Positions 6,807-58,065 of a stretch of DNA of 64,000 bases are shown here, piece by piece (the first letter of the stretch is position 1; each line of letters opens with the position of its first letter). The stretch spans positions 20,161,869 to 20,225,868 of the forward strand of contig OZ316892.1 in NCBI GenBank assembly GCA_973895155.1, in the 5' to 3' direction. The notes under the pieces were generated by a model that saw only the letters and a program-made list of their open reading frames with translations, was not told the origin of the DNA and did no database searches. The translations under genes and the position numbers were made by a program. This DNA is from Marsupella aquatica (Eukaryota; Plantae; Marchantiophyta).

Positions 6807-6960
6807 GTCATTCGCAAGCTATAAGCTTAAAGTTTCTATTATAATAGATGTCATTATTTTATTATTGATTTGTTATTGTTTCTGTTTTCTGAGGTAGAAC
6901 CCTTAGGCTACAACCTCAGTACGTTATTTGAAGGCGTACTGAAATCTCTGTTTTTTGCAG

Positions 6961-7749
6961 TTTTTTGAAAATTTGGCTAGTCGAATAGATCAATGCCTTG
7001 ATCCTTCTAAGGATATGGAAGAGCTATTGACCAAGTTCTTACAACACTCGATCAAGAGGAAACATATGATGTGTCTGAGACCGCGCGAGTTGCTCACCGA
7101 TGATATAATTAACGCTTATTTGAGTTTTCTTGAACTAATTCTCGATAGAGTTGGAAAGTCAGACCTTGTCAAATTCTTCCAAACACACCATTTTGAGCTT
7201 CTCTCCATGGATCCTACCATTTTTGATGAGGAGAGAGCAGCTTGGACAAAGGAGTTTCCGCTAAAAATTAGTGAATACGACAAACTGGTCTTTCTAATAC
7301 ACAATGCTGTGAAAGAACATTGGTCATTGGTAGTTGTGTATCCGAAGGAGAAACGGCTTGAGTACCTAGATTCTCTAGTTCATAATCGACAAAATCCTGG
7401 GGTGCTAGATATTGTTGGGAAGTACTACGCCGACGAAATTGGCTGGAGAACTGGTGTCAACTTGGATCGCTCAGGTTGGGAACAGATATATTGGAATGAT
7501 ATTCCTCACCAGAGTGACGGCCACAATTATGGTGTGTTTATCTTGAGATACGCCAAGTGCTTGTGTCAAGGAAATGAAATTAATTTTTCCGCGGATCAAA
7601 TTGAGAAATTCCGTAGGGAGATAGTCTTGTCGTTATTTGACATGGACTTCCGCAAGCCGACGTCCGCAAGTAACCTAGTTATCGGGATCCGTGTTGCTAT
7701 GATTGACATTTCCGATGGAATTCCAGCACTGAACGACCGTCTTGTACAG
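6961..7749 (+). pseudogene. Ulp1/C48 SUMO-protease domain exon with the catalytic Cys replaced by Tyr
   Basis: LTDDIINAYL, HWSLVVV, YLDSL and IPHQSDGHNYGVF (canonical QxxxxDCG). Confidence 0.85.
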
Positions 7750-7833
7750 GTAATACACTTCATTTCAGTCTCTCTTTGTAGTCACGCGATCGTTCGCGTT
7801 ATAAACTTATTTTCAATTCTTAATGTTTTATAG

Positions 7834-10011: not shown

Positions 10012-10156
10012 ACTCTTGGGGCCTATTTTTGGAAGAAAAAAGGAAGTATTGCATTACTAGAAGAGGCTAACTTGCTTTACTAGACAATTGGTCTAGGGAC
10101 ACCTAGGTGGTGGGCGCCTATTCATTGCGAGAGAGTAAACAAGTTGATATATAGCA

Positions 10157-12217: not shown

Positions 12218-12635
12218 CCTTTCATTACAGAATGGAGACTAGAGACTAAGGTTCTTGATGATGGCACTCATATGGCCAAAGTCAAGAGTAAGGATAATCT
12301 TTGTGTTATCCAATTTCCAACAGTTCGCCCGGATCATGTGAGAAATAGGAAGGAGCTGAGAGCAAGTGAAGAGATGAAGGACCAAGAAAATTTCTGATTG
12401 GCATCCCGTTAATGAGGGTGAGCAGGCAGGATGCCAATGTGAGTGACTCACCAAACATAAGATTTTCCTCGTCTTCGTTTGTAGCTATAGGGAGAGATAG
12501 AGAGGTTTCATATATGCAAGTTAGAGAGGCATCAAGAAAATTGAAAAAGAGAATTGAAAGAAGTAAGGCTATGTTAGTTAGTCAAGGTGTTATGGATTTA
12601 AGTGATAACATAGAGGGTGTGCTAGATGAACAAGG

Positions 12636-15819: not shown

Positions 15820-17359
15820 TGTCGTGGGGATTCCTTTTAGAAGGCTAGAATCTATATTGTGTTATTTGAATTTATGTGAAGAGGGTTTTACTTAAAAGCT
15901 TCATAGTAGTACTATTAGAGCATATATGTTACATTCTATATGTAGTGTGTACATTCTATAATGGTACATAGTAGTTCCACCAATTACGCATAGTAGTTTC
16001 ACCAACTACGCATAGTAGTTTCACCAACTACGCATAGTAGTTTCACCAACTACGCATAGTAGTTGCACCAATTACGTATAGTAGTTTCACCAACTATGCA
16101 TAGTAGTTGCACCAATTACGTATAGTAGTTTCACCAACTATGCATAGTAGTTGCACCAATTACGCATAGTAGTTTCACCAACTACGCATAGTAGTTGTAC
16201 CAATTACGCATAGTAGTTCCACCAATTACGCGTAATAATTCCACCAACTACGCACAGTAGTTCCACCAACTATGAATAGTACTAGCACACTTATAGGTGC
16301 TTGATGCTTGCCACTTGGCTTCCATCCAAGGGTCAAGGCATCGATCCATGCCCTCTTGGAAAACACAAAGGGGCACTATAAATAAAGTGAAGAGGAGCAC
16401 ACTCTCCTCATTCGCATTGTTTGATCTATCATGTTGGACTTGCAACACTATAAGGAACTCTTCCCCTCTTGTGCACATGTCTTGTTTATTATTTACCTCC
16501 ATGCTTGGGTACTAACTTGATTGTTAGTCTTAGAACTATTTTATGTTTTATGTTTATTAGTCTTGAGATCAATTTAGTGTGCTTGTAATGAATAATATGA
16601 TAAATGGAGTACCTAGAGTTTATCCCCCACCTGTTGTGCCATTTGTCAATCCTTTCTTAATTAGAATTCATTGTCTTAGCAAGCATACCATGAGAATGAA
16701 TCTTCTTTATCATTTTGGATTTGAGTTAATGGAAACAGTTATGAATAGCGATGCACCATTTGTATACCCGATTGTTGTTTATGGAAATGAATGGAATGTA
16801 ACTATTTTTATTTTATATTAGATGGATTTTAATAGACAATCCATAAATATACCGAAGTTAGATTTGAATAGGCTTCCTAATAATGTGTCTGATTTTCCTT
16901 CATCTATTGACATTAGAGTGGTATGCCATAAGAAGGTTGATTGTAGAGATGTTTTAGTTAGAAAGTATGGAGATGAAAGATACAATGTTATGTTTAGGAT
17001 GCCAGAACCTGTGATTATATCATCTATGGTAAATCTTAAGATCATAGTCTTTATTTTCTATAATTGACTTATCTAATTGTAGGATTCGTTGAAAATTGCA
17101 ATCTATGACTTGACTTGGGAAGTAAGTTATGTGGAAAGAGGATAGGCCGATTCGAGGCTTAGTGTGAGGAAGCCGCTCATCGTAGAGTGGGACAAAGGCT
17201 GTGAGAGATATTTTAGAGGATAACGGTGAGAGAAATTGATCGACAAAGGGGATTGCAAGGGTAATGTGAGGTGAGAAAAGACGTATTTTGGAAAGGTTTC
17301 TTCCAAGATAGGAAAAACAAGAGCTCGGTGCTTCCCAAGAACTAAAGATTCCCTCGACA
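15820..17359 (+). repeat. Gypsy 3' LTR (1540 bp), preceded by PPT agtggggggtgata
   Basis: Direct repeat of the 5' LTR, 110 bp longer (five extra 22-bp units). Confidence 0.95.
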
Positions 17360-17670
17360 ACGGTCTCTCAAGAAAATCTTGAGAAAGATTATATTGATAA
17401 GACGAATCTTTGGAGGAGAAATGTGATCATTCGTAATCACGGGAATAAAGACCATTTAGAAAAGTTTGACGAATTTATGAAATACTTATCTGCCGAAAAA
17501 GACCGTGCTATAAAAGCCCGGGATAAGTCCAATAAGTAAACGTTTATTGTTTATTATCAATTATTATTTATAAATTGATTAAAATTGAACTTTATATTTT
17601 GGGAGTGACGCGCCTGGTCACGTGGTTGTTTGCAATTGCATAATATGAGAATCAAATTGTTCATTTACAG

Positions 17671-17999
17671 GTGTCTAAGTGGAGTAGGTTGCGTCAACTT
17701 CTAGTTTTAGGACTGGAAAACTTCCTGTGCTCTGTTTCAAAATATACTCCTCAGCTCAAGTTGACACCCGGAATGCGTATCGGATCTCTATGTGTCGTTC
17801 CGAGGCCGCATCTTCATGATCTTATAAAATTATGTTATGATCATTTTGATGTGATGGTCTGGTCTATTCTCGACGATAAACTGGTTTATCAGATACTTTC
17901 AGAAGTGTTGTCGAGCACCGACCTGTCGCAGCTGATATATGTGTTCACGCGGGATCATTGCTGGAATCTTGGTTATGTGAAGAAAAATTATAAGACTGT
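17671..17999 (+). pseudogene. FCP1-like domain 2, N-terminal half (C-terminal half at 43917-44292, minus strand)
   Basis: LLVLGLENFL, PRPHLHDLI, VMVWS and HCWNLGYVKKNYKT; cut at the CACTA TIR. Confidence 0.7.
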
Positions 18000-18854
18000 C
18001 ACTAGAAGAATCCGAGGTGAACTGAGACCGCAATATATGACTCATTTTGGCTCATGTGACTTCATTGTGACTCAATGTGACTTGACCCACGCTGTGACCC
18101 TTGGAGTTGCAAAAGTTGAGACCAAAAAATGGAAGTCACTATTGATACTGGGCTTTGCAACTTGCTTGATACCCATTTGTGACTGATCTGTGACTTTATT
18201 GTGGAGTCTAGCCTTGTTTCGACGTGACTGCAATATGACTTCAGCGAGTCACATCGTAAGTCACATACATGACTTACCCGCATTCAACAACGACTAGCGT
18301 GTGACTATTTAGTGTCACAGGAGAGACCAATGGAGACCTTGGCCCGCGTCACACAACAGAACCATTTGGGACTCTATATACTCATGTTTATAACTAATAA
18401 GGTTCACATGCAAGTTATAACCATGACTAATGAACACAGAGGGACAGTTCATAAGGAGAGAGAGCACTCGACATTACAATACATAGAAACCTGATGTTCT
18501 AACTTTAGAAATATAACACATTGAATACAGGAAATGAACATAGCATGAATGACATCCACATGAAACAAAGCATCATATAAGCAGATCCTACATAAAACAT
18601 TCATAAGAATTAAACACAATCACAATCTTGCTAAAAAATGAAGATCATTTGAATTCCAATGGAATAGTTTACAATGTGATCAATGTAATTTAGACAAAAC
18701 AGGAACTCATAATTGATGACTGTAGGATGAGATAACTGAAAGCACATGCATGATACTATGAATCTCCAAGAGGACATGATTCTTGTACTGCTTCTTGACA
18801 TCTAAAATCTACATAACATGACTCACACTACAAACAAATAATGGCATGACATTG

Positions 18855-22717: not shown

Positions 22718-25700
22718 TCATGGCACAGGCACACTGTTGGCATCTGCATCTCTGAATTCGCCTCCTTCAGCAAATGCATCTACCCTTGTCACAGGAATGA
22801 AGTCCCCGCTATCATGAACTACAGGCACTTGGTCTGAACGCCGATGATCAAAGGCACTATGAGAGTGTAAATGAAACTCAAGGTTTGATCCTTCCATCCG
22901 ACGTTGCCTGGCCTGTTTATGACACACTACACGCCAACCTGGGGAGTCTTCCACATCCAGGAAGAAAGCTTGCTCCACCTGACTAGGAAACACAAATGGC
23001 TCAGACCATTCGGGCAATTTCCCTCTGAAATTGGCCAGCAAGAAACCGTCGTTGTCTCTCTTCATGGTAGCCCTGTTACCAAGCCAATCCTGCCGCACCC
23101 ATGAACCTTTCATAAGAATCACAGGACTGGACACCGCCCCATAGTCTAGAGCCCATATGTCAACTAATTCTCCCACATATCCCATCTCCATCCAGGCCCT
23201 GTCGTGATTGTGGCTCTGTTGCTCAAATACAGTGATGAGCCCGCAGTCATTCGTCACCCTGTAGGCACTGTCACCATCCTTCACTCGGAAGTGATTCCCA
23301 TATGCTCTCATCCGTTTATAAGTCTTCACTTTCAGGCTAGGGGCATTAGACAGTAGGTAAACATCTGCATCCATGTCTGGGTGGGTCTCGTGATGCTCTC
23401 TAATTGCCACTCTGATCCACTCCATGAAACCTGGAAAAGTTGTTCTTGCAGTGGGATGGGCCGCCTTCAATGACTCATACTCCCTGAACGAACAACCACA
23501 CAGCATTAGCTTGGGTAAACATGAACAGGCTGAAGGAGAAAACCACACGAACACAACATTTAAGCTCATGAACTGGATTATAGCACATGTATGCACTCAC
23601 TGTATCCAGGGTTCCATCACTACAGTGTTGTGCAATACAAAGTCATGTGCCAAGTCTCTCATAGATATGGTCAGGTTCTTTGTGGTTGCAGCCCCTTCCA
23701 GTACTTCACCTATCACCCCTTCCTCCTCATCAGAATTCCACACCCTGGTCTTCACATGCTCATATTGTGCTATGTATTCGGTCAGAAATCCTAGAGTCTC
23801 ATCCTTGATGTAACCTTTAGCCATGCTTGCTTCAGGTTTGTAATATGTTCTCACGTGACCTTTGAGTAGCTTCATGTACCGTTCCAAAGGGTACAACCAA
23901 CGAGCACTCACAGGCCCAAATTGGTGTAGCTCTTCCACAACATGGACAAGTAGGTGGGTCATGACATCAAAAAATGCGGGAGGAAAATAAATCTCCAGGT
24001 CACACAGCACCTGAGCGACATCTTCTGTCAGTTGTGGGAAGTGTGTTTCATCCCAAACCTTCACACAAATACGATGAAACACATCACTGAGTCGCATGAT
24101 CACAGTACGAACAGGCTTCTGCAACAGGCCCCTCAGGCATAAAGGCAACACCTGTTGCATCAACATATGGTAGTCATGGCTTTTCATACTACCAAGCTTT
24201 CTAGTCATGATATGCTTCTTGAAAGCACTGCCATAGTTTGAAGGAACCTTCAAAGAACTCAACCTCTGCACAAATAGTTCCCACTCTGTGTCTGTCAGAA
24301 CATAGGGCGCTTGGTACTTCAAGAGCACATCAGCTCTGTGGGCATGTGGCCTCAACCAAAGATGGGGTTTCATTCCCCTCTGTTCAAGATCCAATCTCAC
24401 TGAACCAGTGTCTTTCTCTCCACACAAGAATCTGAGTAGACTCTCACAAATATTCTTTTCAATGTGCATAACATCAATGTTATGTTTGCTTGGCTCAAAC
24501 TCCTGCATCGTTGCAATGCAAAAGCGTCAGGAAATGCCTCAAGTTTAGTCTCTCTCTTCGAAATGAATGCACATGCTCTGAACCAAAACATGTATCCCAA
24601 TTAGCATCAACTCCAAGAGGCTTACCCTCCAGTACTTGAGCTCCAAGTCCAATATGCTCAGTCTTTTTACACCATATCGCTTTATTGGATCACTCACTCC
24701 ATCTTCCCTGCCCCCTCATTTGATATAGTCATCCCTCAGTGCTCCCCACTACCTGATCTCCTCTTTGGTCACTCGTGCCGGGGGTCCACGTTGCTCAATC
24801 TCATTGTCAAAGTGTGCAATCAGTGCCTGTCTTTCTCTGTAAGGGTGATCTGCCTTCAGAAAACGACGATGGCCCATGTATATCACTTTCTGCAGGGCTC
24901 TGGAGTACTCACTGGTGACATTGCGCCCACAGATAGTACAAGCACAATATCCTTTTGTTGTTTGGCCTGATATCATCCCATGGGCTGGGTAGTCAGCTAT
25001 AGTCAGAATGACAATGGCTCTAAGGATGAATGGGTTTAACCTCCCAAGCCTCTGTAGGACATCATATGTGAGAACTCCTTCCTCCCAAAGCTTTCTCAAT
25101 TCCTCCACTAGGGGAGCCAGAAACACATCTATGTTGGCAGATACAGCACTGTCTGGCCCTGGTATCAGTAGGACCATCAGAAAAAAAAATCGCTTTGTAG
25201 TCATCCAAGGAGGAAGGTTATAATTCAAAATAGTTACAGGCCAGCACGAAAATTTGTTGTTCTTGTCTCCAAATGGGTTTACCCCATCCAATGACAGCCC
25301 AAGTCTGACATTCCTCGGCTCAGCAGCAAATTCGGGATACATCTCATCTATGAGTTTCCATTGCCTTGAATCTGCAGCATGTCGTTGTAGCCCATCATCA
25401 CTTTTCTTGTCAGTTGCCCAAGTCATCATCTCCGAGATGGCACGGCTTCTGAACATCCGCTGAAGTCTGGGAATGAGTGGAAAATGACGAAGTACCTTGG
25501 CGGGAACCATAGACTTTCCTAAGTTCCGATACCTGTGCTTCCCACACTTAGGGCATGTCAACGATTCTTTATACTCCTTTCTGAAAAGAACATGCCCATC
25601 AGGACAGGCATGGATCGAATCATAGTTCAATCCAAGATTAGATATGCATCTTTTTGCCTCGTACATGTTTTTGGGCAAAATATTACCATCTGGTAGCACA

Positions 25701-26395
25701 GTTGTTCACAAGAATGCCAACAACTCAGAAACCAAAATGTTGGGGACATTGTGGTTGCCGCAAATGTTCAGGAACATGATGACAAATCCCAGTTTAGAAC
25801 ATTTGCTACCGGGGTACAAAGACTTCCTGCCTTCCTGTATTTGCAGGGGAGAGCCAAACATCCCATCATGCCCAGGGGTTTCCTGCCCTATCTCAAACTC
25901 ATCAAGAGGCTCTTCGACAGGGGGCACACTTGCATCTGCAGCCGTATCCTCTTCATTGTCCAGCCCATCATGAAATGCATCCAAGTCTTGGAAGATGTCT
26001 CTCACCATCTCTTCCACATGAATTCCTTCGTCACGTGGTGCTGCCTGAGCACCATCCCATTGGAGAGCTGACAACCCACAGAGACCAGCTACAACATTTT
26101 CAAATGCACCAGGCAGAACCTCACTTGCCCGTCTTGCAGCATTGGCAGCATCAAATTCTAACCTCCACTCCTCGTCGGAAGAATCTTCCTCTACAGGATC
26201 ATTCCAAACTCGATGTCGTGGATCTCTTCCATGAACCGCGATATGCCGCCAAACCTCATTCAGACCCCTGGTACGGGATCCTTGGCAGATTGCACAAGGA
26301 CATCTCATCCTACTGGCTCCTGAAAGTCTGGTTCGTAACCTTTCACGCTGCCAAAGCTTATTATCATGGCGTGATATCCTTGTGGGATGATGCAA
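22718..26395 (-). pseudogene. CACTA transposase TnpD (Tnp2/Transposase_21, DUF4218, DUF4216) with premature stops
   Basis: CPCAIC, LSLDGVNPF, DYPAHG, DVMHIEKN, KSHDYH, WLYPLER and EPFVFPSQVEQAFF; stops at ~25706 and ~24749. Confidence 0.93.
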
Positions 26396-26882
26396 AGGCA
26401 GTGCCTGTGCCCTGGGCTGGGTCTAGGGAGGGTGGTGACCAGGGTGCATTGTAACAGGCTGGGAGCTCTGCAGTCATGGACAGCAGTGAACAAGGATGCC
26501 TAATGGTGGTATTTGTGTTCCATATATCCCTGATTGTATCTGCCAAAAGAGTTAACATAACGTGTACTAAATTCTCACAAACCCTAAACCACCCCAAAAG
26601 AAAAAAACAGGTTCGCAAGTAGTGTACCTATTGTCAAGTGAATGACACAAAATTCCTAAATGTTGGAGGGTGTCACCACCTCCTCTGCTGTCCTCAAATG
26701 TACCGCCTCTGCATGTACGTTTACAGTGACACCCCCAGGCAGTAGGAAACAACAATCCGCCAACAGTAAAATAAGCCCAACTGCCACCAACCATAACAAG
26801 GTACATTAGTTCAAAGATCACATTTATTTCAATGATCTGATTTATACAAAAAAACTTGTGTCCAAACTGATGCTACTACTCC

Positions 26883-27761
26883 TCACTTTGATTCAGAATC
26901 GCTAATGACCCATTCCTCACTTGTTGTCTCATAGTCCTCTCTGTAAGGATCCTGACCCTTCCGTGGCCAGGCCTCAAAAAGATCATAGTCCATTGGGTTT
27001 TGACGCTTCCCAGCTACTACTGATTCCACAAGCCAAGCATATGAAACCACAAACACATTATGGGACATGACATAAAAGCGAATGTCTCCCTTCCCAAACT
27101 TGCGGCAGGCTTTGGGATATGACTTAGTAATGACATGAGTGGTGTCCTCTGTTATATTCTCCTCCACTGTCCCACCTAGGTCAAGCACTGTGGACTTGTA
27201 CACTTTGCACTTAACCTCTCCAATTCCCGCCTCCACAAATACCATGCTCAGCCCTTTCAGAATGGGGGTTGGTTGCTTCGTCTCCTCAGCCAACATACAC
27301 TTCAGCCTTGTAGAGCTCTGTCCTTTGTTGAGTACAGGTCCATATTGGAGATCAGCAAGCCGTGCCTTTGCTTCCCAGACTTCTTGTTCAGCCCAAGCTT
27401 ATGCAGAAGCTTCTTCATCCTCCCACAACTCATATTGCTCAGTATCCTGTACAATCTTATGTGCTATGGAATCTGTGATCCAAGAGGCCTCAACTACTTT
27501 TAGGCCTTGCTTAGTAATTGCAGAATTCATGTAGGACCATGACCACTTCTTTATCACTGATAGCCATGTCCCTGCAACAACATGTGTAGTCTCTGGAGTG
27601 ATGTCCTGAACTACAGTGCCATGGAGCTCAGAGAATCGTTTCTGTACAGTTGGCCAATGCACTTTGGTCAACCCATGCTGGCCATGGACCAAAATCGCTC
27701 TGACCCCTGTAAACACTGCTGGGTGGTCACACTTTCTACGTTTACCAGGCTCCATGTACAC
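26883..27761 (-). pseudogene. Tandem BRCT-domain protein with one in-frame TAA at 27399-27401
   Basis: Both ORFs are in the same frame. LHGTVVQDITPETTHVV...VVEASWITDSI and LGGTVEENITEDTTHVI...VVSYAWLVESV are BRCT signatures. Confidence 0.8.
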
Positions 27762-28347
27762 ACACTCTACGTGATGACAGTGAATTTTGGAAGAATGGGT
27801 TCACCTGACAATACAAGGACAACAAAATTCCTGCTTTTTGAGTTGATCTGGCCCACTGGTGCTCAGGTCCGATTTTGATAGGTACAAGGGATATGTGAAC
27901 AATACGTACTAGGCACCTGCACGGATGCAGGACATTGTTTGAATATATACTACAAAATCCATATCCGTGGTGAAATGAAGTGCAACCAACTTGTCATGGC
28001 ACATACATATTTTGTTGTAAAGGAGGATACATTCAATGACAAACTTATAGGGCAATTTGATTAATTGCATGCCTGATAATTTATACGCTTACAACTTAGA
28101 AGTCCTGTTTTAATTTAGCAGTCTGATGAAAGTGTTTATGAAAATGACCACTCAGCCTAAATACTTCCAAGAAGGCTTGTAAGGATAAGTTTGTATAGGC
28201 ATGTACCCAGCCACTGACGCCAGAGCACAAGATAAGTGCTGCCTATATAAACTCGCCTACCCAACTCCTTTTCAAAATTGGAATCTCTGCAATCTCAAAA
28301 AATAGTACATCCACATCAGGTGCACTGTGCATGTACAATGTTCAGCT

Positions 28348-29028
28348 TCACAGCCAAGATATGTGATCTCTCACAGGAGTGCGCGAGGTAGGATCAATGG
28401 TATGGCGATGACAATAAAATATCCATCGATCAACACCATGTGCAGAGTGATCATAGATTTCTCTGTCACAAGCATAACCCTCTGCTTGATGATCTTTCAG
28501 GCAATGATAGTGCCACATAGTGGGACACCTAGCACAGTGGACTATGTCAGTCCAGTAGTCATCATCATGCTCACCACATGCCTTGCACCTATGAAGTGGG
28601 CAAGCTGTGGCATGAGCAGGCAAACACTCAAAACAGAAAAATCTCACACAAAAATGGTCTGGACATTTCCTAACATTTGCTGCAGCATCAACAGAGCCCT
28701 CATAGGACCCCAACTTCCCACACTGTGCACACTTAGCCTGCTTCTCCAAACAATCAGTGCACATCCAGTCTCCCTGGTGTGTTGACGGGAGGCCCACCCC
28801 TGGACAGTTGTTTTCTGCAGCAAGGTCAGACTCCGGGTTGAGGTGGAAATGCCTCATGCAAGGGCCCTCACAAATGACCAGGCCCCCACCATCGTCACAA
28901 ATGGCACAACAATGAGCTGCCTTCTGGAAAATCTGACTTGCAGAGAAGTTAGTAGCATCTGCCCCAAGTACACCTGTGTTTCTCACCTCTGTCACACGCT
29001 TTTTGGCTTGAATTTTAGGCCGTGCCAT
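28348..29028 (-). CDS. EDM2/NSD-type composite PHD-finger protein
   Basis: CAICDDGGGLVICEGPCMRHFH...WMCTDC...CAQCGKLGS...CPLHRCKAC...CARCPTMWHYHCL; open ATG-to-stop ORF. Confidence 0.8.
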   Translation of the reverse strand: MARPKIQAKKRVTEVRNTGVLGADATNFSASQIFQKAAHCCAICDDGGGLVICEGPCMRHFHLNPESDLAAENNCPGVGLPSTHQGDWMCTDCLEKQAKCAQCGKLGSYEGSVDAAANVRKCPDHFCVRFFCFECLPAHATACPLHRCKACGEHDDDYWTDIVHCARCPTMWHYHCLKDHQAEGYACDREIYDHSAHGVDRWIFYCHRHTIDPTSRTPVRDHISWL

Positions 29029-29726
29029 GCCTGCGCATGAGATAGACTCTACAATTTAGCAGACTGCACAGAAAGTAAAATATATTTAGCATTTAAGGTA
29101 CAAAGGCATTTGCTACTGCAATGAATTGGAATGGCCACACAAGGATGCAGAGCACACATACTTTTGGTATGTTGAGCCCACACACAAAACTGATCCCCTA
29201 ATACAATTTCTCCACCAACACCTCAATTTTAATTGTGGCTATGATTCACCAAAGGAGATCTGCAACAACATTTCATGCATTTGAATCACATACAATAGTC
29301 GTGACATGTAAAACAGGCATTCTTCGAAGAGGATTGGTATGAAGCAGTGTCATAAGGGTTGAAATTTATACATCCTAAATAGGTTATGATAGTGGCTGAG
29401 ACAAATAAGTGAGGCATAAATCATTTTGCATATTATCACATGGCCCATTAATTCATTCAACGTTGCAATGTTCACCAGGTTAAAGCAGTCATGAAAGCAG
29501 TCTTTCAATAGAGACTTTTATGCGAGTTTGCTAGCCTCTTAAATTAGGATATTTTGCTTAGTGCAGGCATAATAGGATATAAGTTATGTACTGTTGACCC
29601 TAAACCCTGGACCCAAAATTGCTCATACATCAAAATTTTAAGTAAATATCCTCTGTGTTGAAGTCAGAGTGTTAAGCTATAGGTCAATGGTATCTGGTCT
29701 GTGCATGCGGTGTGACAAGTGGTCCT

Positions 29727-43101: not shown

Positions 43102-43850
43102 TTAATCTGATCTCATGCCGACTATTATTTTGGAAGCGTCCAAAATTGGACGTCTGTTAAATTGCTCTACTAGATATCTATCTCCATGCCTCTGAATCAC
43201 AGGGTCTTCCCATAGAGTATGATTATAATCATAATCTCTAAAAATAGATTTAACTGACCAATCAGGATAATCTCTTCCATTGGCAATGACAAGTGGCTCA
43301 CAAGAGTTTGCTAGCTTGCTAAGATACGGAATCAACAAGTTAATCAAGAAACTGTCGTCGACCGACCCAAAATATTTGGGCAGAAATAATGATCCAACAA
43401 CAAGATCTAAACAAGCATGAAATGCATCGGATTTGATAAGCATTATATTTTGCTGCAGATACGCCTTCGTATAAATTCCAACCTTCTCAAAACACTTCAA
43501 AAATATCCACTTATTTGATGTTATCCCATCGCATAAGTAACAATGAGACTGATCCCAAATATACTTAAATGAGGCCATTTCCATTGCAGTAAAAATAGAT
43601 GCTAAAATCTGATCTAAAAGGTTCTTCCCAAGAGAGGACCAGATCTCTACATCGAAATTCTCAAAATAGAATCTCAAGAATTTGTGAAGATGAGGCCTTG
43701 GAAAAACGTATATATTCCCAATCCGAATTCTAGTTGAGACCGCCATCAGTCAGGAATGCAGTGCAGTGTAACAGAGTACATGCTCCACATCTAAAACTAT
43801 GAGCCCATTTTCTCTACTGCAATGAATCTCTTGTAGAGAAACACAAGAAG
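43102..43850 (-). pseudogene. FCP1-like domain 3 with one in-frame stop at 43750
   Basis: LIVLDVEHVL, PRPHLHKFL, VEIWSS and DDSFLINLLIPYL. Confidence 0.7.
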
Positions 43851-43916: not shown

Positions 43917-44292
43917 CTACACTCTGGCCATTAAGTGATGTTTGTTGAAGTGCTTGATAAGAACTTGATCCGCATGTCTCTGCATGTACAGATGCTCCCA
44001 TATATCCTCGTTCAGATCCCAATCTCGATGTAGATTTCTAATCGACCAGATGGGATAATCAAACTTGTTAGCGAACGCAAGACAAAGCCCTGAATTTGAT
44101 AGCTTTCGTAAATATGGAATGAGGTCATCCCTCAAAAATACATCATCCAACGATCCTTGAAATGACTTAGCGAACAATAATCCGCATACAGCTGTCTGGC
44201 ATGTATGGGAAGGACAGGCATCAATCTGGATTATATTCTCTGGTCGCTAATCTTGAAACATATCACGTAGTCTCTCGATAGATTTGAAGACA
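43917..44292 (-). pseudogene. FCP1-like domain 2, C-terminal half
   Basis: VFKSIERLRDMFQD*RPENIIQIDA...DDVFLRDDLIPYL. Confidence 0.7.
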
Positions 44293-46970
44293 ACATGTCC
44301 TCTACCTCCATGAGAGATGAAAGTAAAAAAGGGCGATCCTCAATAAGAAAATGATCAGCCAACAATGAGAAGGCGGCCGCCCACGCACCCAAAAAGGCCA
44401 AAGGTGAAAGGCTCTCAATGGAAGTAAGCCCAAAACCACCCTGCGAAATAGGAAGACTGAGTTGTTGATGAAGCCACGGAGATGAGAGCAACATACCCGG
44501 CCCCAAAAGAAAGGCCAGGGTCTGACGAATGGAGACATCAAATGCTCGAAGGTGGAGACAAAGATCCTCGGTAGGGGGATGCGTCCTAGCCAGATAAGAC
44601 GCACGAGGGTGGATGCACCTCAACAACATCCCAAATGCTGCCTGAGAATCTGCTAACTTAGGGAGCATAGGAGTAGAGGCTAAGGCAACCTGTAGAGAGT
44701 CAGCGATGAAAGAGGAGCAAAAGGAGGCGGTACCGACTGGGGAGCCAAGGACCCGAAGACCATCGGCTGGACATAAGAACCCTGGGGGAAGCGCAAGATC
44801 AGAGGGTAACCCAGCTGGACTCCATGCACGACTCTTCACAGGCTGAACTCGTAAACCGAGGCCCATCAAATGGGTGGAAAGAGTGGCAAGGATAGAAGTA
44901 ACCGCGGCAGGAGGACCAATGATGTGGGTGTCATCTGAAAGGGAGGGGAAGATACACTGGGGGTGGGCCATGGCGGCTTCCCGTAAAGCTGTAAAATGGG
45001 CAATGGCAAAAAGAGGCCCACCCAAAGGGTCACCCTGACGAGTACCTTCTGCAGAGGAAAGAGTGGTATACACACCTGTAGAGGAGTGATGACTATAGAA
45101 GAGTGGGGCCTTGAGTCCATAAAAACAACGGACAAAGGGGATCAGGGACTGGATGTCTGGATCCGCCGCCCTCAAAGCACGAAAAATGGCTGCCCGAGAA
45201 ACCGTATTAAAAGCGTTAGAGACATCAACCTGGAGGACAACCCAATCAGGATGGAGATCCAAGGTAGCTCGAATACCCGCAATAACTGTCTCACAACCGC
45301 CAGGAACGCCAACAGCAAACTGATGCGGAGAGAGATGATCCGATAGTGCAGAGCGAAACTGTGAGGAAAGTGTGCGAGACACAAGCCGAAGAAAAACCTC
45401 CCCAATAGCAATTGGCCGAACACCCGGTGAAGACTTAGCCATGGCCAATAAACGAGAAGCACTCAAGAGCCAAGAGATGGGAGGAGGCAAACGACCGGCT
45501 GCAATACACTGGCAAAAGGAGAAGAAAACTGGAAAACCCAACTGAGGATCCTCAGGGGGGAATAAATCCCAAAAATGCTCAAAGACATAGCCGGAGGGGC
45601 CACCAGCAACGCAACGCGGGGCATGGAGGAAGGCATAGGTGAAGTGGTCCCGACTAAACTGAAGATCCTCCTCAGGCTCAAAATCATCTACGAACAAAGG
45701 GAGCTGATCATGGGGCTGCGGATGGAGATCCTGAAGGGCCGACGAGGTGACCTCGCCTGGGGGGGGCTGGTGTGGTGGAAGAAAGGGCCTGGACAGCCCG
45801 ACGATATTCACCAGCCTGGGCTAAACGACAAGAGCGACGAAGACGTCTATGCTCAGGGGGATGAGAGTGGCGGGTTGGGTCAGACAAAGCACTGGCGATA
45901 AAAGACCGGGCGCGAAGAAAGTACTCTTCCTAAAGTTGCTCCCAATCTCCCCGCAAAAAACGATGGATACGAGAGGCAGTCTCATGGTGACCCACACGAC
46001 CACCATGACTAGGGAGGGTAAGAGACCACTAAGCATCAGTAAAGACCAGTAAGAGACCTCCATAGGATGCGCCAAGATAAGCTGCATGAGTTGCAACAAG
46101 GAGGATCGAACTAAAGGGCGCAGCACCAGAGGAATGTGGTTATAAAGGCGAGGTCTAATGTACCCTGGATGGTAGGCTGGAAGGGGGTCTAGAGTGCGAA
46201 CCCAGCTCCATGCCTGCTCGGGAGCCTCCAAGGAGGGAGGGGCAGAGCTAACCGGGTCAATAGGGGGCTGAGGCTGGGATTGTGCTTGCTGGCGACGATG
46301 GCACCGGCCCCGCCCACGATGATGAGGGAGGGAGATGCCAACCCATCCACAGTCAGGAAAAGTATGCAGGGGACGCTCGTCCGAGGAGGGAGCAGGGAAA
46401 GACTAGACAGGAGGTGGGGGTGGAACAGATGTGGACGAGGAGGCCGGAGGAGGATGATGAATGGGTGGAGAGGGAATGGGGTGGGGAGAGGAGCCAGGGC
46501 GACGATGGGGTGGGCAGTAGATGGGGGGGACTGGTAGAGCATCAGGCATGGGGTCATCACGAAGATGAGAGAGATCCAGTGAAGAAGAGGAAACACGAAG
46601 ACGGCCACGAGGGGGAGGGGAGGACGGGGGAGAAGTGTGGGGTGGGGCTGGGCGCTTGCCCCGCGCCAACACTCTCAACGCAGACATGACAAGCCGCAAT
46701 CCGATAAAAGCAAAAACGCATCAAGAAGCGACAAAAGGCCCAACCGAGGCAGGTGAAAAGAAAGGGGAGGCGATGGAGAGAGCCCACCGCATCAGGCCGA
46801 GAAACGGCGCCACCGCTAGCCTAGGAAACCGTTGAGCAGGTGCAGGAACAGTAAGGAACAAAGCTGAAGCGCCCGTCGAGCTGTCTGTTGGGGAGGCGAC
46901 GCGAGTGAAGATCCGTCCTTTGGATTGAGCATGCGGCTACAACTCCCGAAGGTGACAACCAATTGGAGGA
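44293..46970 (-). mobile_element. CRE-like non-LTR retrotransposon, 3'-truncated at the inversion breakpoint; RT ORF 45811 to 44293
   Basis: VRPIAIGEVFLRLV, QFAVG..GGCE, DVSNAFN, QGDPLG, SLSDDTHI, LGSPVG and LPISQGGFGL; no APE domain seen. The 5' limit is approximate. Confidence 0.8.
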
Positions 46971-47014
46971 GAAAGCGATGGCCTAAAGCCGATGTGACAC
47001 GCTCATACGTTGAC

Positions 47015-48420
47015 CCAAATCGAGTCGTGAAGACGCCAAGATTGCCAAACGCGCAGCCAATGTGAAAAAATGGCGAAACCTAAATCGGACGTAACTCGCT
47101 CAATTGGTGACCCTTGGGGGCGCAATTCATATCGATTTTCACCGCCTCACCAAGATCTTTCCAAAGCCGTCAAGAACACCCAGATCCAAAACTCCTGGAG
47201 AAAGTTACGACTCAAATTGAGTCGCGAAATCGCCAAAATCGTCAAACTCGCAAAAAAAGTGAAAAAACGGCGAAACCTAAATCCGATGTAACTCGGTCAT
47301 AGGGTGACCGTTTGGGGCGCAAGTCGTATCGATCTTCACCGCCTCGCCAATATCTTTCCAAAGCCGTCAAGAACACCTAGATCCAAAACTCCTGGAGAAA
47401 GTTATGACTCAAATTGAGTCACGAAATCGCCAAAATCGTCAAACTCGCAAAAAAAGTGAAAAAACGGCGAACCTAAATCCGATGTAACTCGGTCATAGGG
47501 TGACCGTTTGGGGCGCAAGTCGTATCGATCTTCACCGCCTCGCCAATATCTTTCCAAAGCCGTCAAGAACACCTAGATCCAAAACTCCTGGAGAAAGTTA
47601 TGACTCAAATTGAGTCACGAAATCGCCAAAATCGTCAAACTCGCAAAAAAAGTGAAAAAACGGCGAACCTAAATCCGATGTAACTCGGTCATAGGGTGAC
47701 CGTTTGGGGCGCAAGTCGTATCGATCTTCACCGCCTCGCCAATATCTTTCCAAAGCCGTCAAGAACACCTAGATCCAAAACTCCTGGAGAAAGTTATGAC
47801 TCAAATTGAGTCACGAAATCGCCAAAATCATCAAACGCGCAAAAAAAGTGAAAAAACGACGAAACCTAAATCCGATGTAACTCGGTCATAGGGTGACCGT
47901 TTGGGGCGCAAGTCGTATCGATCTTCACCGACTCACCAATATCTTTCCAAAGCCGTCAAGAACTCCCAGATCCGAAACTCCTGGAGAAAGTTACGACCCA
48001 AATTGAGTCACGAAATCGCCCAAATCGCCAAACGCACAGAAAAAGTGAAAAAAATGGCGAAACTTAAATCCGATGTAACTCGCTCATACGGTAACCGTTT
48101 GGGGCGCAAGTCGTATCGATCTTCACCGCCTCGCCAAGATCTTTCCAAAGCCGTCAAGAACTCCCAAATCCGAAACTCCCGGAGAAAGTTACGACCCAAA
48201 TTGAGTCGCGAAATCGTCAAAATCGCCAAACGTGCAGAAAAAGTGAAAAAACGGCGAAACTTAAATCCGATGTAATTCGCTCATACGGTGACCGTTTGGG
48301 GCGCAAGTCGTATCGATCTTCACCGCCTCGTCAAGATCTTTCCAAAGTCGTCAAGAACTCCCAAATCCGAATCTCCCGGAGAAAATTATGACCCAAATTG
48401 AGTCGCAAAATCTCAAAACT
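47015..48420. repeat. ~197-bp satellite-like tandem array, ~7 copies
   Basis: The cytaaatc anchor recurs at 47079, 47276, 47472, 47668, 47865, 48063 and 48260. Confidence 0.97.
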
Positions 48421-53271: not shown

Positions 53272-56200
53272 ATGGCAACTGTGGCAGTGGTCACCGAGGT
53301 TGTGACGTTGGTGAGCGGGATCGTCACCATATGCAAAACAATCTCCGACATTGCGTCCAATTTAGAGGCTCTCGGAGGGACATCGGCCAATTTTCCGTCT
53401 GACATTGAAACCCTTCACAAAAGGATCAAGGCTGTTGAGGAGAAACTCAGCATTCGTGGGGAACGCGTGAATGGCAACGTGGTGAAGAAGTTGGAGACTG
53501 CGAAAGCCACACTGTTGAAAGCAGAGTCGGACATACAAGATCTGAAGAAAAGATTTGAGAGCAATAAGTGTTGCTTCCTGCGATGGTGGTTGTCTGTCAA
53601 ATTATACATGAATTCATTCTCAGCTAAACTCGATGAACCATTGCATCTGTGAACAAGGCCTTAGACGATGTCATCAAAATCATGAAGGACGATATAGAAC
53701 TAAGAACTCTTGCGCAACAGGATGCCGACCTTCAGCCTATCCCTACAAGAATTTCCGATATCGATGACCTTTATGTTCCAATGGAGGAGGTACAGACTGC
53801 TGTCATCGCAGCAGTTGAAAAATTGGATGGCCCTCCGATAGTATTGCTGCATGGTGGTGTAGGTAAAGGGAAATCTACTCTAGCTAGATATGTACATAAA
53901 ATTTATCAAAACAGAAAAGAAGTATTTCAATACGTGCTCCTAGTCAATTGTGCAGGTAGCTCCAAACTGGATCCTTCGAACAAGCAGTATGAAATCTTAA
54001 GGAGACTTTCTCCCGCCAGCTTAACCACTAACCCAGAGCGAGAAAATAGTGACTTTAAGTTTAGGATTGCAGAATCCCTCCATGAGTTTTTCCTGAGTGG
54101 CAGCAAGATCTTAATTATTCTGGACGATATTTCCGACCCTCATTTCATACATGAGATGTTTGAAAGCTTCTCAAGGTGGTACCCAAGTGAAGTACTTGGT
54201 TACTTCCCAATATCGCAATTTGTGTCACAGCTGTACGAATTACTCTTTTCCTATTCTTATGAGTGATCGCAAACATGATGAGGCGAAGACCATTCTTGCA
54301 ACCCTTGTTGGACTGAAGGACAACTTAATTCCTCAAAAGTTACAGGTCCGTTTCTGAAATTCAGTTTCAGCCCTTTTTGTTGGTTTGTTCCTTACCATGT
54401 TCCAGAGTTTACATTGGACTTTACAATTTACAGCAGTTCCGGTATTCCTATTTCGTTTTTGTGTAGCATTGAATCATTTAACAAGTTATTATATGTTAAA
54501 CCTTCTTTATCAATATTGGTTTTGCAGCATTTAACAAGTCGTGCATTATTTTCTTTGACATGCAGCGCATTGGAGATCAGATGATAAAGGCTACAGGTGG
54601 CAACCCATTAGCTCTCGCTTGTTTGGCGAGTAATTTTGCTAACAACCAAGACAAGACAGATGTGCGTGCATGGATGGAAGCCTACAAAGCACTGTGTCAG
54701 ATACTTGGCGATCCAGAGAAAAATATTGTCCTCGGGGGCAATTCTGATGATACTCCACCAAGAAGTCTTTGGGCTGCTATGAAAATCTGCATTGATTATT
54801 TGGAGAGCCGAAATGCTAAAGATATTTTGTTCTTGATGTACGCTTGTGAAGGAGAATCAGTCCCAGAGGAGGTGTTAAGAATTCTGCATGCTACTGCAAA
54901 GACTTCGGGTGGCATGTTTTCCAAGTCAATTGCAGAATTACGGTCCAGGGAACTCTTGAAGGACAGTACGAATACAATTGCACCCAAGTTGAATTTTGAT
55001 AGTAGGGACCAAATAAAGTCCAAGTCATGGTCCATGTTGACTACACTGAAGCTCTACATTGACAAGCATATGGCTAGTGACCAGGAAATGAGGTCCCTTT
55101 TCAGTTTCTTGCAAGGGGACGGTGAAATTCAAGCGGATTCTAGTATCAAACATGAACGGGGCTCTGAAGTAGAACCAATGCAGAACGGGCAGACCAAAGT
55201 GGCCATTGCTCTGTGTGCATTGTACTTCGATGGCGATCACACAGATAAAATCGTAAAAGAAGCTGCAACTTGGGCTTGCAAGGCGTCGCATATGAACGAC
55301 TGGAATGCTACTATCAAAGACAGGAGACGAAAGGCCATTGAGCCCCTAATCTGGTTGCTGGACCAGACAGAAGACGACGATCCTACATGGAGAGAATCAC
55401 ATATCGAGTGTTTGAGACAGGTACCTTCTGCTGCCCCTGCTTCCTTCCCTGTCGAGTTTCACACAATACTCAGAATTCATTCGTTTCTGTTGTTAACGTA
55501 GTACCATATTGAATTTGCTGGAACTAAATAATGTCTTCACTACGACATATGGTCTGTACCATTCCCCGTACCATTCGTGAAACAGAATGTCTATGTTTTG
55601 TAAGTATGGAGCCCGCTATTGAGTCATGGTCATAAAATTATCAAAACTCTAAAACGGCAATGTTAAAGATAAGAAATTCGTGAAAGAACAGCTTGCATTT
55701 GTCGCTTGAGCGATCTTTCTGGTTTACAGCAAAAGAACAGAAACAAAATTAGAAATAGAAATATGCACTGATTTGTACTCGCATATTCCAACATGGCCTC
55801 AATGGAGTGTTCTGATATTTTTCTTTACCTTCCAGTTTGCCATAGTTCCAAACGAGACAGATTTGTTTTAGCGAGATTCCAACAATCGATTCTCGGTCCC
55901 CATGTAATTGTATGACTTATTATTGTGTTTCATAATTACAGATATTTCTGAGGTACATTTGTGTCAACGAGCTTGATGACAGCAACATCTGTATCCTGTT
56001 GAATTTGACGAGCTGTCGATCAGCACAATTGGCAATGCTCGTCGCTCTTGCCAACATTCTAGACATCGAAGAAATACCTTTGCTAAAAAGTGATCGTCTG
56101 ACTTTTATGGAACCACTAGTGCACATTTTGAGATCCAATGCAGATTTCAAACCAAATATTCAGAATGCTGCTTGGAACGCACTAGATAAAGTTGCCCGGA

Positions 56201-58065
56201 AAGCTCGTCAGGAAATGCAATCAGATTCCATCGTAGAAAGCACGCCAGATCTTTTGCCCACATTAGAACGCTCTCTTCAAGATTCAGATGGGCGTGCAGA
56301 AGATGCTGCGGCAATTTTGGGGACGCTGTCAGGTGTCGGTCGTAAATCAATTAGACAACACATTCTCACAGAAAGTGGGGCCGCGTTGCTTGAAAGCCTT
56401 GTGAAGTCTCTCTCCAAGGACAAGAACCCTAAACTACAGCAAAATGCAGCATCGGTTTTAAGCAATCTAGCATGTGGACTTGACACAGTCAAGCTTAGAA
56501 TTGTGGGTGAGGGTGGGGCGCTGGAGGGCCTCGTGGGGGCTATGTCAAAGGATCGGAATCCAGAATTGCAAGTAGTCGCAGCGGGGGTGTTGCACAATCT
56601 AGCAAGTGCACAGGAGACAATCAAGCTCAGAATTTTGGGTGTAGATGGGGTGCTGCAGGGCCTCGTGTGGGCTCTGACAGAGAACCGGAATCCCAAATTG
56701 CAAGAAGTGGCAGCGACTGCATTGCACAATCTAGCCATGGGAGGGGAGTCCATCAAACTCCAAATTTTGGGTGCAAATGGGGCACTAGAAAGCCTGGTTA
56801 AGTGTCACTCGAACCACCAGAATCCTAAACTACAGGAAAATGCAGCACGCTGTTTAACAAGTCTAGCAGCTGGACAAGAGACAATCAAGCTCAGAATTTT
56901 GGGTGAAGATGGGGCGCTGAATGGCTTCGTGGAGGCTCTATCAAAGGACCGGAGTCCCAAATTGCGAGAAGCGGCAGCTGCAGCATTGCAAAGTCTAGCC
57001 ATGGGAGGGGAGTCCATCAAACTTCAAATTTCTGGTGCAGATGGCGCACTTGCAGGCCTGGTCAAGTGTCTCTCCAACGAGAACCCCAAAGTACAGGAAA
57101 GTGCAGCCTTGGCTTTGACAACTCTATCAGGTGGACAGGAGACAATCCAGCTCAGAATTTTGGGTGAAAGTGGTGCGCTGGATGGCCTCGTGGGGGCTCT
57201 GTCAAAGGACAGGAATCCCAAATTAAAAGCAGCAGCGGCGCAGGCGTTCCTAAATCTAGCTGCAGCAAGGGAGTCTTTGAAACTCCAAATTTTGGGTGCA
57301 AATGGGGCACTTGCAGGCCTGGTCCAGTCTCTCTCCGAGGACAGGTACCCTAAATTACAGGAAAATGCAGCATGGGCTTTAAGCAATCTAGCAAAAGGAG
57401 GGAAGAAGATCAAGATCAGAATTTTGGAGGAAGAGGAGGCGCTCGAGGGTCTCGTGGAGGCTCTGTCAAAGAACAGAAATCCCAAATTGCAAGAAGCTGC
57501 AGCAGGGGCGTTGGTTAATTTAGCTACAGGAGGGGAGTCCATCAAACTCCAAATTTCAGGTGCAGATGGGGTACTCGCAGGCCTGGTCAAGTCTCTCTCC
57601 TACAAGAACCTTGAGCTACAGGAAAATGTAGTACTGGCTTTAAGCAACCTAGCAAAAGGAGGGGAGAAGATCAAACTCAGAATTTTGGAGGAAGATGGGG
57701 CCCTCGAGGGCCTTTTGGGGGCTCTGTCAAAGGACAGGAACCCCAAATTGCAAGAAGCAGCAGCGGCGGCGTTGCACAATCTAGCCATTGGAGGGGACTC
57801 AACGAAACTCACAATTGTGAACAAGGAAGGTGCACTTGCAGGTCTTCTGAGGGCTTACTCGGAAGGCAACAATCCTCGTTTGCGGAAAAGTGCTGCGTCC
57901 GCTTTGGTCAAATTGGCGAATACACGAGACCCATCAATCAAGACAAAGGTGAGGTCCGAGCAGGGCTGGGGTGGCTGCTCTAACCAAATCTGCAGTGGAG
58001 GTCACTCTGAGTTTCGGAAGGAAGCACATCTGGCTTTGAAGAATCTTGACGTCGATAAACCTTAG
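53272..58065 (+). pseudogene. Atypical NLR-like gene: N-terminal helical (RPW8/4-helix-bundle-like) domain, NB-ARC and ARM repeats; two frameshifts in exon 1
   Basis: Exons 53272-54345, 54566-55420 and 55942-58065. P-loop GGVGKGKST, Walker B LIILDD, RNBS-B YLVTS, GLPL-like GGNPLAL, and 12 repeats of 43-44 aa. Confidence 0.85.
56385..57950 (+). repeat. Coding ARM-repeat array, 12 units of ~132 bp
   Basis: aagcttagaattgtggg (56491) and aagctcagaattttggg (56623) are 132 bp apart; consensus ALxGLVxxLSxxxNPKLQExAAxxLxxLA. Confidence 0.95.

What the first reader, a model, noticed from the sequence alone, without database searches (positions are those of the whole stretch)
53272..58065. NLR-like receptor with a highly homogeneous ARM array and hypervariable positions
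Seen: 12 repeats similar even at DNA level, largely alternating between two subtypes. The scaffold is conserved, but the residues after AA vary: SVLSN, GVLHN, TALHN, RCLTS, AALQS, LALTT, QAFLN, WALSN, GALVN, LALSN, AALHN, SALVK. Established: ARM helix 3 forms the ligand groove; NB-ARM proteins exist in plants (rice RLS1); fungal NLRs such as HET-E diversify by shuffling highly conserved repeats with variable positions. Inference: a plant non-LRR immune receptor that generates specificity by repeat recombination and is coupled to an RPW8/4-helix-bundle-like executioner.
Basis: partly seen in the sequence, partly recalled or inferred. Interest (0 to 1): 0.8.

Follow-up and report, generated by a model that had tools for sequence, protein, structure and literature searches.

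The report
Shuffled armadillo repeats, broken liverwort receptor
A frameshifted copy of a likely liverwort immune-receptor gene carries 12 armadillo repeats of two alternating types, one a hybrid of both, whose fastest-changing residues are predicted to line the binding groove, so its family likely makes new recognition specificities by repeat shuffling, as some fungal receptors do.

Summary
The array is real: 12 ARM units with the listed motifs. 'Highly homogeneous' overstates it: R1-R11 are 54-84% alike as DNA. The first break recurs in contigs of three runs from two studies, so this copy is likely dead. Intact relatives are liverwort four-helix/NB-ARC/ARM proteins, likely of the known CC-NB-ARM class that includes rice RLS1. 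New here: (1) repeat 2 is a clean A/B hybrid, the trace of an unequal crossover; (2) three helix-3 sites have dN/dS of about 10, 3 and 3, and site-model tests give p 0.003-0.013, backed by null simulations; (3) the four closest relatives carry arrays of period 1, 2 or 3 that vary on the same helix face; (4) this subclade lacks the MHD-equivalent His. This resembles fungal high-internal-conservation NLRs. Ligand, cell death and allelic repeat-number variation are untested. The scan noted a similar broken copy elsewhere in this genome (e1-10632140).

The parts
53272..54345 (+). Exon 1: N-terminal helical domain and first part of NB-ARC; broken by two frameshifts
   Evidence: tblastn of P0006 gives three HSPs in frames +1/+3/+1; GT donor at 54346
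53272..53637 (+). N-terminal four-helix (CC/MLKL/RPW8-like) domain, putative executioner
   Evidence: AF2 helices 2-34, 41-61, 68-96, 99-121, pLDDT 68, pTM 0.44; intact relative P0035 helices 2-26, 31-57, 63-92, 105-141; generic four-helix matches only, best Z 11.1
53638..53652 (+). Frameshift 1 (one base short of paralogues) and premature TGA at 53650-53652; the product would be 126 aa
   Evidence: contigs crossing without a gap in X1, X3, X4 (records 2, 27; records 9, 17); divergent contigs carry the extra base (table 4)
53802..54143 (+). NB-ARC core; P-loop GGVGKGKS at 53853-53876, Walker B LIILDD
   Evidence: Pfam NB-ARC 38.6 bits vs cut-off 23.5, E=9.2e-10; motifs
54159..54161 (+). Frameshift 2 (one extra base in a T run)
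   Evidence: at >=97% likeness the open form holds depth 0 of 112 in X2, 24 of 62 in X3, 30 of 100 in X4 (table 4)
54346..54565 (+). Intron 1, GT-AG, phase 0 (inferred)
   Evidence: no RNA data
54566..55420 (+). Exon 2: GLPL-like GGNPLALA, winged helix with degenerate MHD-equivalent (WSMLTT), helical linker
   Evidence: 62% identity to P0006 372-660; alignment
55421..55941 (+). Intron 2, GT-AG, phase 0 (inferred)
55942..58065 (+). Exon 3: 707 open codons plus TAG; degenerate ARM units, then the array
56425..57870 (+). ARM units R1-R11 in the order B, A/B hybrid, A, B, A, B, A, B, A, B, divergent A; hypervariable helix-3 columns 10, 13, 17 (and 7)
56557..56688 (+). R2, hybrid repeat: A type in helix 3, B type after; crossover between about 56593 and 56617
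   Evidence: 6 A then 12 B diagnostic sites, none out of order; arrangement p 1.1e-4
57871..58062 (+). R12 and C-terminal cap; about ten codons out of frame between compensating 1-base differences at 57970 and 57999
   Evidence: table 4 (X4), table 4 (57999 in X3 and X4); the other frame reads VAALTKSAV, a helix-2-like stretch

Best explanation
This is a frameshifted, likely non-functional copy of a multi-copy liverwort four-helix/NB-ARC/ARM gene, whose intact relatives likely work as intracellular immune receptors with an ARM array that is predicted to bind an extended peptide and likely changes specificity by unequal crossing-over and positive selection. Shown: architecture, both breaks, A/B alternation, one hybrid repeat, excess amino-acid change at three helix-3 sites, and arrays of period 1, 2 or 3 in relatives. 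Inferred: helix 3 lines the ligand groove; binding releases the NB-ARC switch; the proteins oligomerise; the four-helix domain damages membranes and kills the cell. My odds by step: copy dead 0.85; unequal crossover 0.9; diversifying selection 0.8; immune cell-death role of the family 0.6.
For: Breaks. Family: the three NB-ARC+ARM hits are C. fissa. Of 20 of the 48 exon-2 hits looked up, 16 are liverwort proteins, 1 is an insect repeat protein and 3 are unnamed. A relative's NB-ARC model matches tomato NRC1 at Z 29.0, rmsd 3.2, 325 aligned. Hybrid R2. Selection: columns 10, 13, 17 have omega 9.7, 2.6, 3.2; M1a-M2a p 0.011, M7-M8 p 0.003, M8a-M8 p 0.013. Neutral simulations reach the observed M1a-M2a value in 0 of 150 without and 2 of 150 with recombination; the signal survives removal of R2, R11 and R1. 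Columns 10, 13, 14, 17 align with W, S, N, S of the designed-ArmRP motif EALWALSNIASG, and peptide binding perturbs helix 3 there (PMC10684580, one passage). Helix-3 variability in the window and in paralogues correlates (rho 0.77, p 2e-4). Rice RLS1 (CC-NB-ARM) causes HR-like death (PMC10030324, passages). Fungal TPR/ANK NLRs show selected sites on the concave face (PMC4986451, passages).
Against: No ligand, expression or cell-death data. The window array only touches the looser HIC cut-off (Psim 0.70) and misses the 85% one. Wider site sets are not above omega 1: the recalled dArmRP library positions give 1.23, p 0.37, and the seven columns most variable in paralogues give about 1. A-type repeats alone are not significant (2dL 1.9). 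The 7/10/13/17 set was chosen after seeing the data. Beyond R2, evidence of conversion is weak: PHI-type p 0.036, 0.018, 0.16; third positions 0.10 and 0.35; no identical tract survives Bonferroni. Codon models are my own code on 11 short sequences with relative branch lengths fixed. Near-identical contigs differ in exon 3 by 8 non-synonymous and 11 synonymous changes, fewer than neutral (p 0.002-0.012), so the array may still be, or until lately was, constrained.
Confidence: 0.6

Rival explanations
1. Neutral history: an ARM dimer was tandemly duplicated, surface positions drifted under weak constraint, and the copy is decaying. There is no recognition code.
For: The gene is broken; overall omega is 0.64; exposed helix-2 sites also drift at omega 1.15; wider groove sets are at about 1; conversion tests are weak.
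Against: Column 10 holds 8 residues in 11 repeats at omega about 10; null simulations seldom reach this (best site 1 of 150 and 0 of 150). The same helix face varies in four paralogues with different repeat periods, and in P0007 most of the differences among units that are 82-96% alike fall there. Exon 3 is open for 707 codons.
Confidence: 0.13
2. The family is a variable sensor with a non-pathogen role: self/non-self recognition between individuals, or guarding host proteins in senescence or development, as first described for RLS1.
For: RLS1 was first tied to chloroplast degradation in senescence (PMC10030324, passage). Characterised fungal HIC NLRs act in allorecognition (PMC13449251, abstract). 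The subclade lacks the MHD-equivalent His, which may mean a non-standard switch.
Against: Multi-copy, fast-turnover genes with diversifying sites fit an arms race with microbes; RLS1 also takes part in HR-like death and disease resistance.
Confidence: 0.14
3. The locus still has a job in broken form: a 126-aa four-helix-only product, an NB-less ARM protein from a downstream start, or a donor of repeats to intact paralogues.
For: Exons 2 and 3 are open; break 1 is shared by runs of two studies whose exon-3 contigs differ by about 1-1.5% with a synonymous excess. C. fissa P0001 is annotated as a similar N-truncated ARM protein. Fungal NWD pseudogenes keep near-intact repeats (PMC13449251, passage).
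Against: The stop lies 694 bases before the first intron, a likely nonsense-mediated-decay target (general knowledge). The contigs with the synonymous excess may belong to an intact near-paralogue. R12 is also damaged.
Confidence: 0.1
4. The breaks are assembly errors and the gene is intact.
For: Break 2 lies in a T run, and contigs at >=97% likeness with the open form exist in X3 and X4.
Against: Break 1 is not in a homopolymer, is crossed without a gap by contigs of X1, X3 and X4, and no contig at >=97% likeness is listed as restoring it. X1 may be the source sample, but X3 and X4 come from another study.
Confidence: 0.03

Closest known systems
Plant CC-NB-ARM class (rice RLS1, LOC_Os02g10900; cluster in PMC12512272 Table S3)
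   Same: Helical N-terminus, NB-ARC, ARM in place of LRR. The published cluster holds RLS1, 5 M. polymorpha and 11 M. paleacea rows, some with domain strings like my hits P0049/P0058 and P0051 (a match by domain string, not by sequence).
   Different: RLS1 is described with three ARM motifs and an MHDV-like motif. Here there are 12 internally similar units in a two-type array with selected groove sites and no MHD His. No angiosperm protein was among the 20 of 48 exon-2 hits I looked up. This copy is broken.
Fungal high-internal-conservation NLRs (Podospora HET-E/HET-D WD40; Pa_2_10340 NB-ARC-TPR; Pa_3_8560 NACHT-ANK)
   Same: STAND ATPase with similar tandem repeats, selected sites on the concave face, recombination between repeats, frequent pseudogenes, TE-rich setting, exchangeable N-terminal domains (here).
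   Different: ARM repeats in a land plant; lower identity in this copy; higher-order periods of 2 and 3; allelic length polymorphism and intergenic exchange not shown here.
Designed armadillo repeat proteins and importin-alpha
   Same: Best PDB sequence matches (E 4e-31); same helix-3 motif with the conserved Asn in 8 of 12 units.
   Different: Natural, 43-44 aa, fused to NB-ARC; pocket residues vary instead of a fixed Trp.
CC-MAEPL, RPW8 (CCR) and MLKL-type executioner domains
   Same: N-terminal four-helix bundle with a hydrophobic first helix; ESM Atlas leads at 0.84-0.87.
   Different: No Pfam RPW8, Rx_N or MLKL_N hit; no literal MAEPL (a MAEPL profile was not available); no such domain in the top 50 fold matches.

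Membership tests
Plant CC-NB-ARM (RLS1 class) | NB-ARC domain | tested here: met
   Pfam above cut-off; relative's model Z 29.0 to NRC1 NB-ARC
Plant CC-NB-ARM (RLS1 class) | C-terminal ARM repeats, no LRR | tested here: met
Plant CC-NB-ARM (RLS1 class) | N-terminal coiled-coil / four-helix bundle | tested here: met
   four helices in two AF2 models; modest confidence for the window's own fragment (pTM 0.44)
Plant CC-NB-ARM (RLS1 class) | NB-ARC groups with RLS1 in a tree | tested here: inconclusive
   No RLS1 sequence was on hand; my tree has liverwort rows only. Indirect: published cluster holds RLS1 with Marchantia NB-ARM-TPR genes.
Plant CC-NB-ARM (RLS1 class) | MHD-type motif in the winged helix | tested here: not met
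   WSMLTT in the window; His absent in all 5 rows of its subclade, present in most of the other 16
Plant CC-NB-ARM (RLS1 class) | Intact reading frame (functional member) | tested here: not met
   two frameshifts and an early stop
HIC NLRs (works-like comparison) | Psim >= 0.70 (PMC13449251 section 17) | tested here: met
   0.70 single, 0.76 dimer, borderline; P0006 trimer 0.91, P0007 0.74, P0008 0.76, P0025 0.65 single and 0.72 dimer (my calculation, not T-REKS)
HIC NLRs (works-like comparison) | >= 85% identity over 100 aa (PMC4986451) | tested here: not met
   window protein identity at most 77%; reached by P0007 (82-96%) and by same-type units of P0006 (mean 84% at lag 3)
HIC NLRs (works-like comparison) | Positive selection on the concave binding face | tested here: met
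   placement by alignment to designed ArmRP and helical periodicity, not by a model of the array
HIC NLRs (works-like comparison) | Repeat-number polymorphism between alleles; intergenic repeat exchange | not testable with these tools
   contigs are short, none spans the array, and paralogues confound joints; no genome held
RPW8 (CCR) domain | Pfam PF05659 match or specific structural match | tested here: inconclusive
   no Pfam hit; Atlas 0.84 lead; not listed in fold searches
Cell-death executioner NLR | N-terminal domain triggers cell death | not testable with these tools
   needs a bench assay

The most novel reading that the evidence does not exclude
A leafy-liverwort subclade of CC-NB-ARM receptors is a natural programmable armadillo binder. 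Each repeat reads a short step of an extended microbial peptide through three or four helix-3 residues. Arrays of period 1, 2 or 3 are rebuilt by unequal crossing-over, broken copies like this one serve as repeat reservoirs, the executioner is swappable (four-helix or alpha/beta-hydrolase), and the switch works without the MHD His. This would be a fungal-style variable immune repertoire in a land plant, with a decodable peptide-recognition code.
Probability: 0.25. Interest if true: 0.85.

Novelty: new variant of a known kind. Interest (0 to 1): 0.56.

Why it matters
Plant immune specificity is studied almost wholly in LRR receptors, and CC-NB-ARM proteins are known mainly from one rice gene. 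If liverwort members diversify by shuffling similar ARM units with a few selected groove residues, plants have evolved the fungal HIC strategy on a different repeat. ARM-peptide binding is modular and well studied in designed proteins, so the arrays could be read to predict ligands. Marchantia polymorpha has a named relative (MpNBS-LRR15) and an accession panel, though its array looks less homogeneous (Psim 0.61 on the 4 consecutive units my profile found). This particular copy is broken, which lowers its own value.

Tried and rejected
No whole genome was held, so paralogue DNA and synteny were unavailable; no second copy lies in the window. No RNA holder was listed: no evidence either way. 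An intron rescuing either break was rejected because P0006 aligns straight across both. Joints that skip or go back by about 200-500 bases in the array at 85% likeness (table 5) have other letters between or unknown and vanish at 97%, so I do not count them as allelic length variants. A profile search with four N-terminal domains returned only three of its own inputs. Foldseek on the N-terminal model found nothing at E <= 0.001; the wide search gave generic bundles at Z <= 11.1. Enrichment of allelic changes at groove columns (2 of 7) is not significant (p 0.13). P0027, P0045 and P0050 were dropped as spurious repeat hits. Literature: Calypogeia+NLR 0 papers; NB-ARC+ARM repeat+bryophyte+immune receptor 0; NLR+liverwort+armadillo+NB-ARC 2; NB-ARM variants since 2017, 37 papers, listings mostly on rice senescence; HIC terms, 8 listed, all fungal, none holding 'armadillo repeats'. 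The cross-kingdom HIC survey used WD40, ANK, TPR and LRR only and left out other alpha-solenoid repeats such as HEAT (PMC13449251 section 20). I found no description of HIC-like ARM arrays in liverwort NLRs in these searches; subscription papers (such as Urbach and Ausubel 2017, recalled) and preprint supplements were not visible. PMC11228518 did not give groove position numbers; the 26-41 numbering is recalled.
Full report
Observation. Pfam Arm scores E=1.7e-46, and NB-ARC scores above its cut-off upstream; no LRR family was hit. DNA identity among R1-R11 is 54-84%, and R12 is 40-47% like the others. Mean identity is 63% between neighbours and 75% two units apart, so there are two types. Psim is 0.70 for single units and 0.76 for dimers. 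That equals the looser published HIC cut-off of 0.70 (PMC13449251 section 17) and misses the 85% one (PMC4986451, passages). 'Moderately homogeneous' is fairer than 'highly'.

Gene model, and what was missed. tblastn of the closest full-length protein, Calypogeia fissa P0006 (1490 aa), gives three exons, 53272-54345, 54566-55420 and 55942-58065, with GT-AG phase-0 introns (no RNA). Exon 1 changes frame twice. After 53638 one base is missing and TGA follows at 53650; at 54159-61 there is one base too many. Contigs cross break 1 without a gap in X1, X3 and X4, three runs of two studies (records 2 and 27; records 9 and 17). More divergent contigs carry the missing base (table 4), and none at 97% or more is listed with it. 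For break 2, near-identical contigs with the open form hold depth 0 of 112 in X2, 24 of 62 in X3 and 30 of 100 in X4; the X3 contig that matches the window reaches 30 bases past it, one short of the tool's bridging rule. R12 has a further compensating pair at 57970 and 57999. Up to 10 different contigs share one difference at a single place in X3 (table 3), so the family is multi-copy. The neighbourhood is transposon-rich. The copy is most likely a young pseudogene. Against full decay: 19 listed exon-3 differences in near-identical contigs are 8 non-synonymous and 11 synonymous, below the neutral share (p 0.002-0.012); three rows of that table were not shown, and the contigs may come from an intact near-paralogue.

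Family. The exon-2 protein found 48 representatives at E <= 0.001 among 1.84 billion. I looked up 20 of them: 16 are from Calypogeia, Marchantia or Riccia, 1 is an insect repeat protein, and 3 are unnamed. One cluster includes M. polymorpha MpNBS-LRR15. Most have NB-ARC and ARM, some also TPR. A published NB-ARC cluster named CC-NB-ARM contains rice RLS1, 5 M. polymorpha and 11 M. paleacea rows, plus ferns and lycophytes (PMC12512272, passages and Table S3 rows, 90 of 96 term hits seen). RefPlantNLR also notes the rice NB-ARM protein and ARM-type repeats in Selaginella (PMC8559963, passages). The architecture is therefore known. I could not place the window gene with RLS1 directly. In my 21-row liverwort tree the window pairs with P0006 (97/93) inside a 100/100 subclade with P0007, P0008 and P0025. 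These five carry the longest runs of similar units that my profile found, 9-15 (the profile was built from the window's repeats, so it favours them). All five lack the His of the MHD-equivalent, which most of the other 16 rows keep. P0007 has a weak DUF676 alpha/beta-hydrolase-like N-terminus (E 0.008) on an NB-ARC sister to four-helix P0008, which suggests an effector swap.

Recombination. Twenty-two diagnostic bases defined on R3-R10 type R1 as B at all 22. R2 reads A at 6 sites, then B at 12, with none out of order (p 1.1e-4). The simplest cause is an out-of-register crossover between an A and a B unit that removed or added one repeat, at about 56593-56617. Broader tests are weak: PHI-type p 0.036, 0.018 and 0.16 by window size, 0.10 and 0.35 on third positions, and no identical tract passes Bonferroni. 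Paralogues show independent expansions: period 3 in P0006 (84% at lag 3), period 1 in P0007 (82-96%) and P0008, period 2 in P0025.

Selection. On 11 repeats by 44 codons (R12 left out), overall omega is 0.64. Columns 10, 13 and 17 give 9.7, 2.6 and 3.2, and the other helix-3 positions 8/9/11/12/15/16 give 0.26. M1a-M2a p is 0.011, M7-M8 0.003 and M8a-M8 0.013 (own code). Neutral simulations reach the observed M1a-M2a value in 0 of 150 without and 2 of 150 with recombination, the best-site value in 1 and 0 of 150, and the top-three sum in 0 and 1 of 150. Dropping R2, R11 and R1 leaves omega near 2.9 for columns 7/10/13/17; B units alone are significant, A units alone are not. That four-column set was chosen after seeing the data, and seven-column sets do not exceed 1. 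The signal is thus real but rests on about three sites. They align with W, S and S around the conserved Asn in the designed-ArmRP helix EALWALSNIASG and lie on one helix face. Helix 3 is where peptide binding is seen in designed ArmRPs (PMC10684580, one passage). The variability profile of helix 3 is shared with paralogues (rho 0.77). I did not fold the array itself.

N-terminal domain. AlphaFold gives four helices for the window's fragment (pLDDT 68, pTM 0.44) and for intact P0035. Fold searches return generic bundles only. The Atlas lists MLKL_N, Rx_N and RPW8 clusters at 0.84-0.87, lead level. Helix 1 is hydrophobic without a literal MAEPL; MAEPL-type CC domains kill cells in Nicotiana and Marchantia (PMC11218826, passages). 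A four-helix executioner is plausible; RPW8 specifically is not shown.

Mechanism and rivals. Best reading (0.6): intact members are sensor-executioner receptors. A ligand in the ARM groove releases NB-ARC, the protein oligomerises and the four-helix domain triggers death; unequal crossing-over and selection at a few groove sites renew specificity. This copy has been lost, as is common in such families (PMC13449251, abstract, passages and sections 12, 17, 20). Rivals: a non-pathogen sensing role (0.14), neutral duplication and drift (0.13), a residual role of the broken copy (0.10), assembly error (0.03).

Novelty. A new variant of a known kind: the CC-NB-ARM class is in print, and HIC NLRs are reported in plants for other repeat types, but I found no account of HIC-like, positively selected ARM arrays in liverwort NLRs. 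The Marchantia pangenome paper links NLRs to adaptation and does not contain the word armadillo (PMC11906373, passages). After I had logged my reading, the scan's index showed a note on a similar broken copy elsewhere in this genome (e1-10632140); it is unchecked and not counted as support. Interest 0.56.

Noticed in passing
P0006, P0007, P0008, P0025 and window 54566-55420: The subclade with long, internally similar ARM arrays has lost the His of the MHD-equivalent motif.
   Followed up: partly
P0007 residues 1-300: Alpha/beta-hydrolase-like (DUF676, weak) N-terminus on an NB-ARC sister to four-helix P0008: likely effector-domain swap.
   Followed up: partly
P0025: Period-2 ARM array with very variable helix-3 sites and an ACT-domain match near residue 1285-1318, a possible integrated domain.
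   Followed up: no
P0001, P0002: Annotated liverwort proteins with the family's ARM (and, in P0002, TPR) part but no NB-ARC: truncated members or partners.
   Followed up: no
window 10148-15343: Ty3/gypsy-like retroelement: RT, RNase H, integrase, in interrupted frames.
   Followed up: partly
window 22718-29055 (- strand): CACTA-like Tnp2 transposase and DUF4218, with BRCT and PHD-like ORFs beside them as possible cargo.
   Followed up: partly
window 6943-7833; 17644-18186; 43102-43749: Ulp1 protease ORF and two NIF-phosphatase-like ORFs, likely transposon cargo.
   Followed up: no
window 44231-45820 (- strand): Reverse transcriptase ORF, non-LTR-like by appearance.
   Followed up: no
window 47011-48412; 8710-8911 and 15967-16281: A 197-bp satellite of 7 copies, and two arrays of the same 22-bp unit flanking the gypsy element.
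   Followed up: no
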